DNA from: Minisyncoccota bacterium
Lineage (GTDB): Bacteria > Patescibacteriota > Minisyncoccia > Phycocordibacterales > XYD1-FULL-46-19
Assembly (NCBI GenBank): GCA_041649195.1
Contig: JBAZNO010000001.1
Span: forward strand, 1 to 30,544
Reading direction: 5' to 3'
Length of the DNA stretch: 30,544 nt
Part shown: in pieces, positions 1-26,135 of the stretch
Numbering within the stretch: position 1 is the first letter of the stretch
Layout of the letters: every line of letters starts with the position of its first letter
Notes under the pieces: model-generated
What the model was told of the DNA's origin: nothing
Database searches by the model: none
Seen by the model: the letters and a program-made list of their open reading frames with translations, nothing else
Made by a program: the position numbers and the translations under genes

Positions 1-864
1 GAGGGCGAAAGCGAAGGAGAAGGCGAAACTTTTGAGCTTGTCTTGAATGTTTCTCCAGAAGGTGCGGGTTGGATTGATAAAAATCCGGCGCCACCCTATC
101 TGGCCACGCTCCCTTACACGGTGGTTTGGTTAAATCCAATTGCCAATGATGGCTGGATTTTTGATCACTGGGAAGGTACGTACCTCAATAGCGCCACTGT
201 TTTGATGGATGGAGACAAAACCATCACGGCTGTGTTTGTCAGTGTCGGGGAAGGCGAAGGAGAAGGTGGAATTGAGATTGTTCCAACGATAAATTGGGTT
301 ATTTCCAGGATTTATGAATCGGGTGGATCACCGTATAGTGGCTTAGATGTGGCCATGCGAGCGGACCCGATGGGGAGAGAACTTCGAACTCTTATTAAGT
401 TTGATCTCTCCTCAATTTCTTCTGGCACGCAAATTGAAAGTGCTGTCTTGCGTTTATACGCATTGGAACAGATTGAGTATACATCAAGTTGGATTATGGT
501 TAGTCGGGTAATTGAAAATTGGGATCCCGTCTATACCACCTGGACAACACGCATTAATTCTTTGGAATGGGCAACTCCCGGTGGGTCATTTACTGGTAAT
601 GATCATATTTCAATTCTGTCTAAATATGGTGGTACTGGATATGAAGATTCTGGCTCGGGCCCATATAATGAGTGGTTCCAGTTAGACATAACGTCGCTAG
701 TACAGGATTGGGTAGATGGTACCTGTGACAACTATGGTCTAATGCTTTGGCAACCAAATGGTGATTTTCATTATCAAAACCAAGAAATTGATTTCGCTAC
801 GCGCGACGACGCCGATGTATCGCTAAGGCCCAGACTGGTGATATCTGTTGCCGGTACGCCCTAA
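1..864 (+). CDS. Modular surface/secreted protein, 5'-partial: InlB-B-repeat-like module, EG-rich linkers, C-terminal DNRLRE domain
   Basis: Frame 1 is open from base 1 (EGESEGEGETFELVLN...), so the gene starts before the window. Motifs: FDHWEG...VLMDGDKTITAVF (B-repeat-like); LIKFDLSSI...I.SA.L.LY, W.TPGG, DIT.LVQ.W...NYG..L, RP.L.I (DNRLRE-like). Confidence 0.7.
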   Translation, partial: EGESEGEGETFELVLNVSPEGAGWIDKNPAPPYLATLPYTVVWLNPIANDGWIFDHWEGTYLNSATVLMDGDKTITAVFVSVGEGEGEGGIEIVPTINWVISRIYESGGSPYSGLDVAMRADPMGRELRTLIKFDLSSISSGTQIESAVLRLYALEQIEYTSSWIMVSRVIENWDPVYTTWTTRINSLEWATPGGSFTGNDHISILSKYGGTGYEDSGSGPYNEWFQLDITSLVQDWVDGTCDNYGLMLWQPNGDFHYQNQEIDFATRDDADVSLRPRLVISVAGTP

Positions 865-885
865 GACATTTACTTTAATTATTGT

Positions 886-922
886 AGAGTGGCCACGATG
901 AAAATCGTCGCCACTCTTTTTC
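886..922 (+). terminator. Intrinsic terminator after the DNRLRE gene
   Basis: AGAGTGGC-C-ACGAT / GAAA / ATCGT-C-GCCACTCT followed by TTTTCTTT. Confidence 0.75.
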
Positions 923-968
923 TTTATCCCCACTTTTGTATACTGTGCGAGATTGGATATCGCACAAT
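923..968. repeat. 46-bp repeat, copy 1 (TTTATCCCCACTTTTGTATAC + TGTGCGA-core-TCGCACA-AT)
   Basis: 923-950 is identical to 1303-1330 and 960-968 to 1340-1348. The 9-nt core here is GATTGGATA. Confidence 0.95.
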
Positions 969-990
969 GTAACCAAGAATTTGAAACCAG

Positions 991-1019
991 TTGACAAGTT
1001 ATTAAAGAAGGGGCATTAT
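991..1019 (+). promoter_or_regulatory. Sigma70-type promoter for the ORFan at 1056
   Basis: TTGACA (991-996), 17-bp spacer, CATTAT (1014-1019). Confidence 0.55.
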
Positions 1020-1055
1020 CAATTGTAGAATATGTAACCTATAAGGAGATTAGCC

Positions 1056-1250
1056 GTGAACGACAAGGGTAATTTTAGCGTCTCAGACCCAAATAGTCCC
1101 CGACAAACCCCGCCGGTCTTTGAACCCCAGAGTGATTGGTTCATCCCCATCTCGGTGATGGGTGGTCCTAAAAAACGAAAGGGCGAACCTCCGACCCCGG
1201 TAACATTTCACCCGTCCGGCCCATGCGGAGGTCACGGAGAGTGGTATTAA
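1056..1250 (+). CDS. Small Pro-rich hypothetical protein (64 aa)
   Basis: AAGGAG (1043-1048) lies 7 nt before the GTG; there is a promoter upstream and a terminator downstream. No recognisable family. Confidence 0.55.
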   Translation: MNDKGNFSVSDPNSPRQTPPVFEPQSDWFIPISVMGGPKKRKGEPPTPVTFHPSGPCGGHGEWY

Positions 1251-1264
1251 GGGGAATCATTTAT

Positions 1265-1301
1265 CCCGCCGAACAGAGCCCCCTCTGTGAGGCGGGCTTT
1301 T
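1265..1301 (+). terminator. Intrinsic terminator after the ORFan
   Basis: CCCGCC-GA-ACAGAG / CCC / CTCTGT-GA-GGCGGG then CTTTT. Confidence 0.7.
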
Positions 1302-1302
1302 G

Positions 1303-1348
1303 TTTATCCCCACTTTTGTATACTGTGCGATATCCAATCTCGCACAAT
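1303..1348. repeat. 46-bp repeat, copy 2, hairpin core inverted
   Basis: Same flanks as 923-968. The core TATCCAATC is the exact reverse complement of the copy-1 core. Confidence 0.95.
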
Positions 1349-1358
1349 TAAAGGTTTT

Positions 1359-2549
1359 TTAGGTGATTACTCCCCCGCCGAGGCAGGTTTTACCAGAGTA
1401 GAGAACAAGGGATTGGCCCGGGGTGGCAAGTTGGGGTTGGTCGAAAGTTATTGTGGCGGTGCCTTTTTTGGGGTCAATTTGGGTTAATTGACAGGGTTGG
1501 AGGGGTTGGCGATAGCGGACGCGACCCCAAAGCGGGCGCCCGAGTAAGCCCGCCAAGGGTAACCCTTGAGCTGCTTTTAAAGGGTTACCCTTGGCGGTGG
1601 CGGGCAGCTTACTAATCCAATTTGTTTTTTCGATTTTTACTTCTAATTTCTCAGCGCTGATTAAATGGGGGTTTGAAGAAACGGTGAGGGTATTTTTTTT
1701 AATATCTTTGGCAATAATATAATAAGGCTTTTCGTCCGGGGCCTTGGTGAAGGTTTCGAAGCCGTGTCGTTCGCCCAAAGTGAAAAAGGTCGCTCCATCA
1801 TGTCTCCCAATTATCTCTCCCCTTTCATTCAAAACATCCCCGTCTTTTTCTTTGATCTCACGCTTCAAAAAATCTTTAAAATCAATTTGGCCAACAAAAC
1901 ATAGGCCCTGACTATCTTTTTTAAGAGCATTAGGCAAACCAAATTTCTTAGCTAAGGCGCGGACTTCGGTTTTTGTTTTGTTGCCAATCGGAAACAAAAT
2001 TTTGGCCAATTGCTCTGGTTTTAAATTCCACAAAAAATAAGTCTGATCTTTAGCGGTATCTTTTGACTCGCCAAACAAAAAGTCAGTCTTGCCTTCTCTC
2101 GGTCGATGAGGGGGATTCGAGACCAAGCCTGCTTTTTGTCTGGCTCGTAAAGATTCTTTCTGTGATAAGATTTGACTGTAATGCCCGGTAGCAACAAAAT
2201 CTGCACCGTGCGCTATCGCCCAATCATAAAATACTCCAAACTTAATATGTTTGTTGCACATTACATCAGGGTTAGGCGTGCGGCCGGCCTTATATTCGGC
2301 AATAAAATAATCCACTACTTTTTTCTTGTATTCCCGACTTAAATCAAGAGTAATGAGGGGGATGTCTAAATGGGCCGCGGCTCGTCTTGCCTCCCTCCTT
2401 TCTTCGCGCCAGGTGCAAATAAAACCAGAGGGTTCCCAAACTTTAATAAACACTCCTATCACTTTATACCCGGCCTTTTTCAACAAAGCCGCGCTGACTG
2501 ACGAATCAACGCCCCCTGACATCCCAACATAAACGCACTTAGCCTTCAT
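1359..2549 (-). CDS. mnmA: tRNA 2-thiouridine(34) synthase MnmA
   Basis: VGMSGGVDSSV, TPNPDVMCN..IKF, ATGHY, KDQTYFL, KKDSQGLCF, PGQS.V.Y...CLGGG. Start moved to ATG 2549 (MKAKCVYVG); the upstream TTG lies in an AT-rich promoter-like stretch. Confidence 0.95.
   Translation of the reverse strand: MKAKCVYVGMSGGVDSSVSAALLKKAGYKVIGVFIKVWEPSGFICTWREERREARRAAAHLDIPLITLDLSREYKKKVVDYFIAEYKAGRTPNPDVMCNKHIKFGVFYDWAIAHGADFVATGHYSQILSQKESLRARQKAGLVSNPPHRPREGKTDFLFGESKDTAKDQTYFLWNLKPEQLAKILFPIGNKTKTEVRALAKKFGLPNALKKDSQGLCFVGQIDFKDFLKREIKEKDGDVLNERGEIIGRHDGATFFTLGERHGFETFTKAPDEKPYYIIAKDIKKNTLTVSSNPHLISAEKLEVKIEKTNWISKLPATAKGNPLKAAQGLPLAGLLGRPLWGRVRYRQPLQPCQLTQIDPKKGTATITFDQPQLATPGQSLVLYSGKTCLGGGVIT
1550..1597. 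repeat. 48-bp in-frame palindromic insertion in mnmA
   Basis: Perfect 18-bp arms CCGCCAAGGGTAACCCTT / AAGGGTTACCCTTGGCGG with a 12-nt loop; falls in the ..AKGNPLKAAQGLPLAG.. segment. Confidence 0.85.
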
Positions 2550-2573
2550 GGCTAAGTTATAACACAAACTAGG

Positions 2574-24812: not shown

Positions 24813-26135
24813 TTATACCAATCGTCCGCGCAATTTTCTATGGTAAGAGAGTGCAAAACGATGGGCCTCGGCATTGGCCTCAATTATCGCCTGACGATAA
24901 TCCCGAATAATGGCCGAACTTTCTAATTGTCGAGGCAAGCCAATTAATCTTGAAGCCTTATGCTTATCATCTTTAGCCACCCCAATTACAACACATGCCC
25001 CCAAATCCCAAGGGTAATCCTTGGACAAATTTTGGACGACGTTGAGTTGGATTTGGTTGCCATCAACCACAATAATATCGGGCATTGGCCACTCAGGGTG
25101 ATTAAAACGTCGCTCGAGAATTTCGCGCAGATTTTCGGGATCATTGATTCCCACTTCTGCGTTATTTCTGCGTTTCGTCTGCGTCCGTCCGCGTAATTTA
25201 AATTTCTTGTATTCACTTCTCTGCATTTCACCATCTTGCCACACCGTCATTGCCCCAGTCGTGTTTTTACCCGATAAGTGGGCAATGTCGTAGGCTTCAA
25301 TTCTAATTTGAGCCCGAGGTGAGTCCTTAAGTGAGCCCAAGGTCTCTCCTCGGGCACCTTTTGCCTTCAACAACGACACATCCCGAATATGATTTAACGC
25401 AAAAATTTGATCGCGAATTTTTCCCGCTTTTTCAAATTCTTTTTTCTTGGCCAAAACCTTCATCCCGCGTTCAAGATTTTTTATCACTTCTTTTTTCTTC
25501 CCCTCAAAAAATAATTTAATATTCCGCACAATCTTGCGATAATCAGTTTTTGAAATCTCACCAGTACAAACTCCCGGACAAAGGCCAATTTGTTTGTTAA
25601 AACAAGGCTTGCCAGAATTTGGCAGACATTTATCTCTATACGGAAAAATTTTGCGGATAATCTTCAACGCCTCTTTCATCTCTGCCCCATAGGGAAATGG
25701 CCCAAATTGGTCTTTTATCCCCAGTTTTGTATGGTCTATCGAAGTCGAACTTCGATAATTTTTACTCTCTAATTCCCGGCCACGGATTGGGAGAATGCGC
25801 GGAAAGTCTTCGTCAGTGATAATCACATACCAATAACTCTTATCATCCTTCTCGCGAGTGTTATAAGGTGGTTGATGTTTCTTAATTAATTCGGTCTCCA
25901 ACAACAAGGCCTCCAAAACTGAATCCGTTTCCTGCCACTCAATTTTATTTGCTAAAGCAAGCATTTGGGTAATTTTAGGACCCCGAGTCTCCCCTAAATC
26001 TCCAACAAAATAACTCTTCACTCGATCTTTAAGCGAAGTTGCTTTGCCTATGTATAAGATATCTCGCCCACGTTTAAAAAAATACACCCCAGGCGAGTCG
26101 GGCAAATTATGGCATTTTAAGTCTTGACTAAGCAT
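24813..26135 (-). CDS. uvrC: Excinuclease UvrC, short form with no HhH tail recognised
   Basis: LPDSPGVY, LYIGKATSLKDRVKSYF, EALLLE..LIK...P.YN, FGPF, RIEAYDIAH.SG, PDIIVVDG, EAHRFA. Confidence 0.93.
   Translation of the reverse strand: MLSQDLKCHNLPDSPGVYFFKRGRDILYIGKATSLKDRVKSYFVGDLGETRGPKITQMLALANKIEWQETDSVLEALLLETELIKKHQPPYNTREKDDKSYWYVIITDEDFPRILPIRGRELESKNYRSSTSIDHTKLGIKDQFGPFPYGAEMKEALKIIRKIFPYRDKCLPNSGKPCFNKQIGLCPGVCTGEISKTDYRKIVRNIKLFFEGKKKEVIKNLERGMKVLAKKKEFEKAGKIRDQIFALNHIRDVSLLKAKGARGETLGSLKDSPRAQIRIEAYDIAHLSGKNTTGAMTVWQDGEMQRSEYKKFKLRGRTQTKRRNNAEVGINDPENLREILERRFNHPEWPMPDIIVVDGNQIQLNVVQNLSKDYPWDLGACVVIGVAKDDKHKASRLIGLPRQLESSAIIRDYRQAIIEANAEAHRFALSYHRKLRGRLV
25156..25194. repeat. 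Four ~11-bp-period TC(T/C)GCGT units in uvrC
   Basis: Units at 25156, 25167, 25178 and 25188; peptide RGRTQTKRRNNAE. Confidence 0.65.
25312..25355. repeat. Palindromic insertion in uvrC
   Basis: GCCCGAGG-T-GAG-T-CCTT...AAGG-T-CTC-T-CCTCGGGC; peptide ARGETLGSLKDSPRA. Confidence 0.75.
25714..25757. repeat. Partial third copy of the 923/1303 repeat plus a 21-bp hairpin inside uvrC
   Basis: TTTATCCCCAGTTTTGTAT (18/19 identical to 923-941), then GGTC and TATCGAAGT-CGA-ACTTCGATA. Confidence 0.75.

What the first reader, a model, noticed from the sequence alone, without database searches (positions are those of the whole stretch)
923..1348. Repeat pair that is both direct and inverted: flipped hairpin core flanking a 380-bp cassette
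Seen: two 46-bp units 380 bp apart share 28 identical bp, then a 9-nt core, then 9 identical bp. The cores GATTGGATA and TATCCAATC are exact reverse complements, so 944-966 and 1324-1346 form a perfect 23-bp inverted repeat while the flanks are direct. Each unit directly follows a terminator, and between them lies a complete promoter-SD-ORF-terminator unit. Inference: recombination sites with a directional core (invertible segment), cassette boundaries, or a hairpin element that flips when copied. No recombinase gene is in the window.
Basis: partly seen in the sequence, partly recalled or inferred. Interest (0 to 1): 0.8.

Follow-up and report, generated by a model that had tools for sequence, protein, structure and literature searches.

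The report
REP-like hairpin pair, core flipped
The two repeats are copies of a small palindromic DNA element that belongs to a hairpin-binding (Y1/HUH) transposase-like gene elsewhere in this tiny genome; the flipped middle is a micro-inversion that recurs in this element family, not a switch or a cassette boundary.

Summary
Units 918-968 and 1298-1348 share direct flanks, and their 9-nt cores are exact reverse complements.

It is not a private pair. The 23-nt near-palindrome H (TGTGCGA-gAT-TGG-ATa-TCGCACA) occurs 8 times in this 0.59-Mb genome and in four genera of its family, with compensatory stem changes.

On contig C70 a Y1/HUH transposase-like gene is flanked on both sides by H and carries a third H in frame. 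Its best fold match is TnpA-REP (4ER8). The gene sits between rpsI and grpE in at least two genera. In each genome its flanking hairpins are of one type, and that type largely recurs at other fixed sites, such as downstream of mnmA and in a uvrC loop.

The orientation of the asymmetric centre varies between genomes at orthologous sites, and within genomes relative to the flanks. The flip is therefore a recurrent inverted-repeat spacer inversion.

No tyrosine recombinase, serine recombinase or HrcA gene was found. The 330-bp interior is an orphan promoter-ORF-terminator unit in a species-specific region that starts at unit B. I found no evidence that it moves or inverts.

Verdict: a REPtron/TIRtron-like system, and a new member of a known kind. 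Only assembled contigs were available, so in-population flipping remains untested.

The parts
884..917 (+). Intrinsic terminator of the upstream gene (1-864, disaggregatase-repeat/CBM96-like). Its T-run merges into unit A.
   Evidence: Fold energy -20.4 kcal/mol. The terminator scan found part of it.
918..968 (+). Unit A. It holds the DnaA-box-like 9-mer TTATCCCCA (924-932), an 11-nt linker ending in TATAC, and hairpin H (944-966, centre TGG). It lacks the right-hand frame X'.
   Evidence: The left frame and arm are 28/28 identical to unit B and 27/28 identical to the copy upstream of the Y1 gene on C70.
991..1019 (+). Sigma-70-like promoter TTGACA-17-CATTAT that would serve the small ORF.
   Evidence: 10 of 12 matches. 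This is a consensus match only.
1056..1250 (+). Orphan 64-codon ORF with a GTG start and AAGGAG 7 nt upstream. GC is 54% against 43.5% for the window, and the coding signal is weak.
   Evidence: coding log-likelihood 0.03 per codon, against 0.16-0.35 for neighbouring genes. No protein homologue. No Rfam match in 969-1297 and no excess RNA structure, z = +0.72.
1264..1297 (+). Intrinsic terminator of the small ORF. Its T-run merges into unit B.
   Evidence: Fold energy -22.2 kcal/mol.
1298..1360 (+). Unit B, a full module. It holds the box TTATCCCCA (1304-1312), the linker, hairpin H with inverted centre (1324-1346, centre CCA) and frame X' (ATTAAAGGTTTTTT, 1347-1360), which overlaps the mnmA stop codon.
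   Evidence: The orthologous site in G008 has the same frames around a different hairpin type. G006 has a degenerate H in the unflipped orientation.
1359..2567 (-). mnmA (tRNA 2-thiouridylase). Its 3' end abuts unit B. In relatives alaS follows it; here it does not.
   Evidence: Pfam. Synteny.
25714..25757 (+). Third copy of the left frame (18/19 nt), joined to a different hairpin (TATCGAAGT-CGA-ACTTCGATA). It is read in frame inside uvrC.
   Evidence: The same uvrC loop holds a hairpin in frame in six of the seven genus genomes compared and in G028. Its type matches that genome's own in G004, G002 and G007.

Best explanation
The two units are copies of the end module of a REPtron/TIRtron-like system.

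The module has four parts: a DnaA-box-like 9-mer (TTATCC[A/C]CA), 11 nt of linker, a 23-nt near-palindrome H with a 10-bp stem, 3-nt loop and one G.A mismatch, and usually a T-rich extended -10 promoter-like tract (ATAAGGGTTTTT..TGnTAnnnT).

The cognate gene is a Y1/HUH tyrosine transposase-like gene on contig C70 (548-1219, minus strand). It is flanked on both sides by H plus the promoter-like tract, arranged as terminal inverted repeats, and it carries a third H in frame.

Enzymes of this fold bind and cut single-stranded DNA hairpins. I infer that this one has spread and keeps homogenising its hairpin at a few dozen sites per megabase.

H is almost strand-symmetric, so only five bases define its orientation. 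Those bases are inverted as a block. This could happen by a polymerase template switch across the 7-bp perfect arms (inverted-repeat spacer inversion), or by re-copying the hairpin from the opposite strand. Unit B has undergone such a flip relative to the master copy and to the orthologous site in a relative.

The 330-bp interior is an orphan promoter-ORF-terminator unit. It lies in a species-specific stretch that begins at unit B. It is not a demonstrated mobile or invertible cassette.

Shown: the repeat family, its link to the Y1 gene, the fold, the synteny, the concerted evolution and the recurrent flips. Inferred: catalysis by the Y1 protein, the flip mechanism and the promoter function.
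For: (1) H is a repeat family. Seven identical 23-mers plus one variant occur in 590 kb, making it the most abundant hairpin in the genome. It occurs in 4 of 46 genera searched, all within the same family.

(2) The Y1 gene.
- Pfam Y1_Tnp scores 32.7 bits against a cutoff of 23.
- Its best NCBIfam match is the REP-associated tyrosine transposase model.
- HUH (H78-F-H80) and Y138-x-H-x-N-P are invariant in 19 relatives.
- The AlphaFold model has pLDDT 85.8.
- The best PDB match is 4ER8, TnpA-REP bound to a REP hairpin (E 7.5e-6, TM 0.67), followed by IS608 and ISDra2 TnpA.

(3) The gene is bracketed by H at 506-528 and 1251-1273. Inner 30-nt inverted frames accompany these copies, and an in-frame H lies at 1043-1065.

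(4) The order rplM-rpsI-Y1-grpE is conserved in genera g1 and g21, with dnaK following in G004 and G036.

(5) Concerted evolution. In each genome the hairpins flanking the gene, and the internal one where it is kept, are of one type, and the stems covary between genomes (GCGAGAT/ATATCGC, CGAAGT/ACTTCG, GCGAAAT/ATTTCGC, TTCGACAT/ATGTCGAA). The site downstream of mnmA, and in most genomes the uvrC-loop site, carry the type of the host genome.

(6) All six genomes with two or more TGTGCGA-type copies carry the orthologue at 63% identity or more. G008 and G002, whose orthologue is flanked by CGAAGT-type hairpins, have 8 copies each of that type.

(7) The other two Y1 genes of this genome are each bracketed by their own hairpin plus promoter-like module. 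One of these families has about 10 copies.

(8) Flips recur. About 4-5 independent loci of 13 are flipped relative to frame X'. At the gene's own flanks the centre orientation differs within genera, G008 versus G002 and G028 versus G036. In G028 two direct hairpin+promoter modules with opposite centres bracket another gene.

(9) Spacer inversion and arm homogenisation by template switching between short inverted repeats is a described mutational process (PMC8604942, PMC8794818).

(10) No other site-specific recombinase was found.
Against: - No biochemical or read-level evidence shows that the Y1 protein acts on H.
- The NCBIfam RAYT model is below its cutoff (43 against 80).
- Copy number is about 10-fold lower per Mb than for classical REPs.
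- H has no GTAG or CGTC tag.
- The CCAAGG hairpin family shows no flips in about 10 framed copies, and the CGAAGT family none in 8. Flipping is therefore not a general property of all these hairpins.
- Covariation of a palindrome could also come from a co-evolving dimeric DNA-binding protein.
- Several copies sit next to promoter-like tracts and upstream of grpE, which is compatible with a regulatory role.
- The cassette was absent from the contigs of a second metagenome that holds identical flanking sequence. That sample also had other gaps, so this is inconclusive.
Confidence: 0.7

Rival explanations
1. H is a double-stranded operator for a dimeric regulator, for example a heat-shock regulator acting like CIRCE/HrcA. 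It would sit beside extended -10 promoters. The units would be duplicated promoter/operator modules, and the flip would be a neutral change in the spacer of the operator.
For: - The 7-N9-7 geometry resembles CIRCE (9-N9-9).
- H lies next to promoter-like tracts in g1 and next to clear TGTGTTATAAT-type -10 boxes in G028 and G036.
- One copy is conserved upstream of grpE across genera.
- No HrcA or CIRCE was found, so another heat-shock control must exist.
Against: - In-frame copies occur inside uvrC, an RNase HII-like gene and the Y1 gene itself.
- Presence varies at orthologous sites.
- Several modules point into the antisense of genes or at nothing.
- Within one genome (G032) different variants each keep perfect pairing at positions a single regulator would not constrain.
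- The spacer is identical in 31 copies across at least 7 genomes.
- Copies bracket a hairpin-binding enzyme gene in every genome.
Confidence: 0.12
2. Segment 944-1346 (403 bp, with 28-nt terminal inverted repeats) is itself a non-autonomous element. The Y1 enzyme would mobilise it and carry the small ORF as cargo, as in a PATE or TIR element.
For: - The inverted repeat is 28 nt at 93%.
- The interior is compositionally odd, 50% GC against 43.5%.
- The interior is absent from all eight other genus genomes.
- It lies in a species-specific region.
Against: - The interior is single-copy in the genome and was not found in any searched collection.
- The frame order at its right end (Y' inside, X' outside) is the opposite of the order at the Y1 gene's own ends.
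- The orthologous site in G008 already has a complete Y'-hairpin-X' module without any insert. Unit B is therefore an old resident site, not an element end.
Confidence: 0.07
3. Programmed DNA inversion. The two hairpins would be recombination sites, and the 380-bp segment, or each 9-nt core, would switch orientation as a phase-variable element.
For: A perfect 23-bp inverted repeat flanks a promoter-containing segment. Both core orientations exist in the family.
Against: - No tyrosine or serine recombinase was found.
- Inversion of the segment would break the conserved frame pair Y'...X' of unit B. That pair is intact and matches the ancestral arrangement in G008.
- No alternative joints appear in contigs from four runs (weak, because contigs drop rare variants).
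- Orientation differences between species are fixed rather than mixed.
Confidence: 0.04
4. Assembly artefact. The 383-bp piece would have been joined to its neighbours wrongly, or in the wrong orientation, through the shared 28-51-nt repeat.
For: Independent Logan contigs of the source run break exactly in both hairpins (521-951, 951-1333, 1318-1900). The window starts at a contig end.
Against: The three pieces have equal depth (6.0, 6.8, 5.4) in the source run. The repeat is shorter than a normal read. The frames on both sides are complete and match other copies.
Confidence: 0.05

Closest known systems
REPtrons: REP sequences with their RAYT / TnpA-REP (E. coli YafM, PDB 4ER8; PMC2817692, PMC3116915, PMC6006769)
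   Same: - A low-copy, vertically inherited Y1/HUH gene is flanked by its own short palindrome.
- The palindrome is also dispersed through the genome, mostly at gene ends.
- Hairpin and gene co-evolve.
- The best fold match of the protein is TnpA-REP bound to a REP hairpin.
- The Y---NP tyrosine motif is that of class 2.
   Different: - There are only about 8-15 copies per genome.
- H has no GTAG or CGTC tag.
- The NCBIfam RAYT model is below its cutoff.
- The hairpin sits in a fixed frame with a DnaA-box-like 9-mer and a promoter-like tract.
- One copy is in frame inside the gene. Intragenic REP insertions were previously noted for subclass 2.4, not for this type.
TIRtrons / TIRYT (PMC3733652) and TnpA-Y1 subclass 2.1 (PMC6006769)
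   Same: - The protein motifs NHFH, FQ, YIH(F/L)NP and the SS tail, and the length of 224-237 aa, fit subclass 2.1 in Table 1 of PMC6006769.
- The gene is bounded by terminal inverted repeats that are partly self-complementary.
- These repeats form a moderately abundant family, as described for some TIRYTs.
   Different: - Subclass 2.1 was reported to lack REP-like hairpins near the gene; here a clear hairpin is the outer part of each end.
- The GGGGWSAS motif is matched only partly (GGGGATAA).
- No DnaA_C-like or other HTH tail was detected.
IS200/IS605 (IS608, ISDra2 TnpA)
   Same: The Y1 fold is shared. Both have subterminal hairpins on either side of a gene unit of about 0.7 kb. In G000, G002, G003 and G036 both flanking hairpins read the same on one strand, as the left-end and right-end hairpins of these insertion sequences do.
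   Different: The tyrosine motif is Y---NP, not Y---Q. The gene is single-copy and syntenic across genera rather than multi-copy and identical. There is no tnpB. The orientation rule is not kept in G007, G008, G028 or G032.
Inverted-repeat spacer inversion by template switching (PMC8604942, PMC8794818); from my own knowledge, also the hairpin-loop inversions of chloroplast DNA
   Same: Exactly the bases between two perfect short arms are reverse-complemented as a block, and the arms stay perfectly paired. The event recurs at orthologous sites.
   Different: Here it occurs in a repeat family tied to a hairpin-processing enzyme. An enzyme-mediated route, re-copying from the opposite strand, cannot be excluded.
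   Same: Inverted repeats flank a promoter-bearing segment, and repeats lie at both sides of a gene-sized unit.
   Different: No recombinase of either family was found. H is 23 nt, far shorter than an attC site. There is no cassette array, and no evidence of two states.

Membership tests
REPtron (REP + RAYT) | The gene encodes a Y1/HUH transposase fold with an HUH motif and a catalytic Tyr in Y---NP. | tested here: met
   Pfam Y1_Tnp is above its cutoff. H78-F-H80 and Y138..N142-P143 are invariant. The model's best hit is 4ER8.
REPtron (REP + RAYT) | The protein passes the curated RAYT model (NCBIfam NF047646 equivalog cutoff). | tested here: not met
   43 bits against a cutoff of 80. By sequence, PDB 4ER8 matches only at E 0.063.
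REPtron (REP + RAYT) | The gene is flanked by its cognate palindromes, which are also dispersed in the genome. | tested here: met
   H lies at C70:506 and C70:1251, bracketing the gene at 548-1219. There are 5 further copies elsewhere, plus one variant. The same holds in G003, G004, G008, G002, G036, G028 and G032.
REPtron (REP + RAYT) | The flanking palindromes are in inverted orientation. | tested here: inconclusive
   The inner frames are inverted (30 nt, 73%). The asymmetric centres are direct in G000, G002, G003 and G036, and inverted in G007, G008, G028 and G032.
REPtron (REP + RAYT) | A conserved GTAG (or CGTC) tag lies at the foot of the stem. | tested here: not met
   The sequences of all copies begin with TGTG, preceded by variable bases.
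REPtron (REP + RAYT) | High copy number (usually more than 100 per genome). | tested here: not met
   There are 8 copies in 0.59 Mb. Relatives have 0-15 copies of any one type.
REPtron (REP + RAYT) | The enzyme binds and cleaves its single-stranded hairpin. | not testable with these tools
   This needs purified protein and oligonucleotides.
TIRtron / TnpA-Y1 subclass 2.1 | Signature motifs NH[YF]H, FQ, Y[IV]HLNP and the SS tail, with a length of about 238 aa. | tested here: met
   Alignment A1 compared with Table 1 of PMC6006769. The Y motif is YIHFNP in the C70 protein and its g1 orthologues, YIHLNP in most other relatives, and YLHLNP in the C36 paralogue.
TIRtron / TnpA-Y1 subclass 2.1 | The gene is bounded by terminal inverted repeats. 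| tested here: met
   H plus the 30-nt frame lies at both ends (I2 and I4).
TIRtron / TnpA-Y1 subclass 2.1 | A C-terminal HTH of the Bac_DnaA_C, HTH_23 or HTH_28 type. | tested here: not met
   PF08299 at E<=10 hits only two DnaA-like genes, not the Y1 genes. Pfam finds only Y1_Tnp.
TIRtron / TnpA-Y1 subclass 2.1 | The GGGGWSAS motif in the inverted repeat. | tested here: inconclusive
   The outer frame reads GTGGGGATAA, which matches 6 of the 8 positions.
IS200/IS605 | The Y---Q motif, a transposase of about 150 aa, and multiple near-identical copies. | tested here: not met
   The motif is Y---NP and the protein is 224 aa. The three paralogues are only 40-45% identical.
Invertible DNA switch | A dedicated invertase (tyrosine or serine recombinase). 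| tested here: not met
   PF00589 and PF00239 were not found in the 90%-complete genome.
Invertible DNA switch | Both orientations are present in one population. | not testable with these tools
   Only assembled contigs were served. No alternative joints were seen.
Integron cassette / attC | An IntI integrase, and attC sites of 55 nt or more with R/L boxes in an array. | tested here: not met
   No tyrosine recombinase was found. H is 23 nt, and there is no array.
CIRCE/HrcA operator | An HrcA gene and the TTAGCACTC-N9-GAGTGCTAA consensus. | tested here: not met
   No HrcA was found. No convincing CIRCE-like site was found: the only matches at up to 4 mismatches are two sites with exactly 4.

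The most novel reading that the evidence does not exclude
The Y1 enzyme does more than scatter its hairpin. It repeatedly overwrites hairpins at fixed, pre-existing sites, including in-frame sites in essential genes such as uvrC and in its own gene.

Because the hairpin is strand-symmetric, the new copy can land in either orientation. This targeted single-strand 'hairpin replacement' would explain three things at once:
- the concerted evolution of hairpin type across sites within a genome;
- the constant frames around interchangeable hairpins;
- the flipped cores.

A weaker variant is that loop orientation is selected to read GAUUGGAUA in the transcript of the gene whose 3' end it abuts. Both window units obey this, and close-range copies split 5:2 in its favour, which is not significant.
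Probability: 0.22. Interest if true: 0.7.

Novelty: new member of a known kind. Interest (0 to 1): 0.4.

Why it matters
REP/RAYT-type systems are known mainly from Proteobacteria and a few other phyla with large genomes. Here the same logic appears in an ultra-small genome of about 0.6 Mb. Related Y1 clusters are mostly from Minisyncoccota, a Patescibacteria/CPR phylum.

In this genome three Y1 genes each keep their own hairpin-plus-promoter-like module, and copies sit in frame in housekeeping genes.

For this finding, it turns an apparently exotic 'direct and inverted' repeat into a readable case of spacer inversion in a palindromic repeat family.

More broadly, it offers a compact system for testing how HUH enzymes maintain hairpin families. 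It could also show whether such modules distribute promoters in reduced genomes.

Tried and rejected
- **Known RNA:** Rfam found nothing above threshold in 860-1400. The cassette interior shows no excess structure.
- **Small ORF:** it has no Pfam or NCBIfam family and no homologue among 5.8 billion proteins. It has no similarity to the small ORFs next to mnmA in relatives.
- **Read-level test of both orientations:** only Logan contigs were available. They break in the hairpins, so linkage and minor variants cannot be read.
- **Metagenome contig scans:** the 3' end of gene1 and the cassette interior gave no match.
- **Empty frames:** a search for Y' joined to X' without a hairpin across the nine genus genomes (including G000) found none. 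The hairpin is therefore not a simple insert into a common target.
- **DnaA_C-like tail:** a tail on the Y1 protein could have explained the DnaA-box-like 9-mer, but none was found.
- **HrcA/CIRCE, integron and invertase models:** all rejected.
- **Fixed core orientation:** I tested whether orientation is set by frame, by gene sense or by one DNA strand. No consistent rule emerged.
- **Second hairpin type as a test set:** CGAAGT-type copies in relatives showed no flips in 8 framed singlets. Most other hits proved to be a different, doublet element.
Full report
**Observation**

- Units 918-968 and 1298-1348 are 51 nt long, 88% identical and 380 bp apart.
- 28 nt on the left and 9 nt on the right are identical in direct order.
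- The 9-nt middles (951-959 and 1331-1339) are exact reverse complements, so 944-966 and 1324-1346 form a perfect 23-bp inverted repeat.
- Shuffles give 0.03 and 0.02 expected matches for the two motifs.
- Both units start in the T-run of a strong terminator (-20.4 and -22.2 kcal/mol).
- Between them lie a consensus-like promoter, a Shine-Dalgarno sequence, a 64-codon ORF and the second terminator.

One refinement matters. The 23-mer is a 10+3+10 near-palindrome (TGTGCGA-gAT-TGG-ATa-TCGCACA) with a single G.A mismatch. Only five bases distinguish the two orientations.

**It is a repeat family**

The same 23-mer occurs seven times, plus one variant, in the 590-kb, 86-contig genome. It is the most abundant hairpin there.

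Among 60 relatives, the arms TGTGCGA/TCGCACA occur in 10 genomes of 4 genera, all in the same family. The inner stem differs between genomes but stays paired: AAT/ATT, CAT/ATG, AGT/ACT. Pairs 2, 4, 8 and 9 show double changes.

In genus g1 a sister type, CGAAGT-YGG-ACTTCG, has 8-15 copies per genome.

**The frame**

Many copies sit in a conserved frame:
- TTATCC[A/C]CA, a 9-mer identical or one base off the DnaA-box consensus;
- 11 nt of linker;
- the hairpin;
- ATAAGGGTTTTT, followed by a TGnTAnnnT extended -10-like tract.

Unit B is a complete module. Unit A has only the left frame and the hairpin. The third window copy of the left frame (25714-25732) is joined to another hairpin inside uvrC.

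No frame without a hairpin was found in the nine genus genomes, G000 included.

**The cognate gene**

Contig C70 carries a 224-aa ORF (548-1219, minus strand).
- Pfam Y1_Tnp is above its cutoff.
- The best NCBIfam hit is the REP-associated tyrosine transposase model, below its cutoff.
- The HUH motif and the Y---NP tyrosine motif are invariant across 19 relatives.
- The confident model (pLDDT 85.8) best matches 4ER8, TnpA-REP bound to a REP hairpin. IS608 and ISDra2 transposases come next.
- Its motifs (NHFH, FQ, YIHFNP, SS tail) and length fit TnpA-Y1 subclass 2.1 of Quentin et al. (PMC6006769). That subclass overlaps the TIRYT/TIRtron group of Di Nocera et al. (PMC3733652).

The gene is bracketed by H at 506-528 and 1251-1273, with 30-nt inverted inner frames. 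A third H at 1043-1065 is read in frame as LCDIQSRT, in a variable loop of the protein.

The promoter-like tract ends 8-9 nt before the ATG. By inference, this suggests a leaderless mRNA.

**Vertical inheritance and concerted evolution**

The order rplM-rpsI-Y1-grpE is kept in genera g1 and g21, with dnaK following in G004 and G036.

In each of eight genomes, the hairpins upstream and downstream of the orthologue, and the internal one where it is kept, are of one type. The type differs between genomes.

Other fixed sites largely follow the genome type rather than a site type.
- Downstream of mnmA, G000 has H. G008 has its own CGAAGT type inside the same frames. G006 has a degenerate H.
- In a variable loop of uvrC, six of the seven genus genomes compared, and G028, hold a hairpin in frame. 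The type is the genome's own in G004, G002 and G007 (YCAISNL, FAKSNF, CSKSNF). G000 instead carries a minor CGAAGT-like type (YRSSTSID).

All six genomes with two or more TGTGCGA-type copies have the orthologue at 63% identity or more. G008 and G002, whose orthologue is flanked by CGAAGT-type hairpins, have 8 copies each of that type. Relatives are not independent samples, so this is descriptive.

The other two Y1 genes of G000 are each bracketed by their own hairpin-plus-promoter module. One family (CCAAGG-ATTAC-CCTTGG followed by TGTGTTATAAT) has about 10 copies.

**The flip**

Relative to the right frame, about 4-5 independent loci of 13 carry the centre inverted. At the flanks of the Y1 gene the centre orientation differs within genera: G008 versus G002, and G028 versus G036. 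In G028 two direct hairpin-plus-promoter modules with opposite centres bracket a lipoprotein gene. That independently repeats the window's arrangement.

Unit A has the orientation of the master copy upstream of the Y1 gene. Unit B is flipped, and the degenerate orthologous copy in G006 is not. The flip therefore arose in this lineage.

I found no rule tying orientation to frame, gene sense or strand. Copies lying close behind a gene read GAUUGGAUA in that gene's sense 5:2, which is not significant.

Block inversion of the spacer between short perfect arms, together with homogenisation of the arms, is a described outcome of polymerase template switching (PMC8604942, PMC8794818). An enzyme-mediated route cannot be excluded.

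The CCAAGG and CGAAGT families show no flips in their framed copies. The lability is therefore specific to this hairpin type.

**The 'cassette'**

- The interior (969-1297) has 50% GC against 43.5% for the window.
- The ORF has a weak coding signal and no homologue.
- No RNA family or excess structure was found.
- The interior has no DNA match in the genus or in metagenome contigs.

The upstream gene (1-864) is also absent from the genus. Relatives have alaS, or other genes, after mnmA. In G000 alaS lies on another contig.

The species-specific stretch therefore starts at unit B. Unit B is an old resident site, because G008 has the full module there.

Contigs of the source run give equal depth for the three pieces but break in the hairpins. 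A groundwater sample has the left flank identical but no cassette contig, with other gaps too, so this is inconclusive.

**Alternatives**

- No tyrosine recombinase, serine recombinase or HrcA gene, and no convincing CIRCE-like site, was found in the 90%-complete genome.
- The operator model explains promoter-adjacent copies and the conserved copy upstream of grpE. It does not explain in-frame genic copies, presence/absence variation, or the perfect pairing of several variants within one genome.
- The model of a mobile 403-bp element conflicts with the frame order and with the pre-existing module in G008.

**Verdict**

This is a REPtron/TIRtron-like hairpin family in a very small genome. The striking 'direct plus inverted' geometry is a spacer inversion in a nearly strand-symmetric palindrome.

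Earlier notes of this scan on the same window had already seen the frame with another hairpin in uvrC, and in-frame mini-palindromes in housekeeping genes. My tests agree and connect them to the Y1 genes.

Noticed in passing
window 25714-25757 (uvrC, minus strand); L083-L091, L010: A variable loop of UvrC holds a palindromic element in frame in six of the seven genus genomes compared and in G028 of another genus. Its hairpin type matches the host genome's own family in G004, G002 and G007 (YCAISNL, FAKSNF, CSKSNF). G000 carries a minor CGAAGT-like type (YRSSTSID).
   Followed up: yes
window 25008-25024; G000 C4, C14, C17, C20, C22, C52: A second repeat family consists of the hairpin CCAAGG-ATTAC-CCTTGG followed by TTGGGGG..TGTGTT(A/G)TAAT, an extended -10 promoter. 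It has about 10 copies, and 12 genome-wide matches to the looser CCAAGG-N3-7-CCTTGG pattern. One copy lies inside uvrC, and two bracket the Y1 gene on C20. It looks like a mobile hairpin-plus-promoter module.
   Followed up: partly
whole genome G000, e.g. window 12787, 21011, 21682; C31, C33, C60, C85: The DnaA-box 9-mer TTATCC[A/C]CA occurs 42 times in 0.59 Mb, 4-5 times the mean of permuted 9-mers. It often lies 10-40 nt upstream of promoter-like sites. The genome has two DnaA-like genes, on C7 (473 aa) and C11 (389 aa).
   Followed up: partly
L092-L118 (G002, G006, G007, G008): REPIN-like inverted doublets occur: CGAAGT-YGG-ACTTCG, a 9-nt spacer GGCTCACTT, then the same hairpin inverted. 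Many lie inside long ORFs. They are probably the in-frame mini-elements noted elsewhere in this window.
   Followed up: no
G000:C67:460-482: A variant of the hairpin (centre GGTTGGGTC) lies in frame (VRGWVSH) in an RNase HII-like ORF.
   Followed up: no
L051 (G004), upstream of its Y1 gene: The H copy upstream of the Y1 gene is split by a GC-rich hairpin of about 27 nt inserted into its loop. This is one palindromic element nested in another.
   Followed up: no
whole genome G000: No Phage_integrase (including Xer-type), Resolvase or HrcA family gene was found in a 90%-complete genome. The three Y1 genes are the only recombinase-like genes detected.
   Followed up: partly
window 1550-1597 and G000:C78:1698-1740: The 48-nt 'palindrome of palindromes' inside mnmA (CCAAGGGTAACCCTTGG type) has a near-identical second copy on contig C78. 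It too is a repeat-family member.
   Followed up: no
window 1-1360 versus G000:C19: The mnmA-alaS adjacency seen in G001, G002, G004 and G008 (and, with a small ORF between, G006) is broken in G000. alaS lies on C19 behind unrelated genes, and mnmA is followed by unit B, the orphan ORF and a gene absent from the genus.
   Followed up: yes
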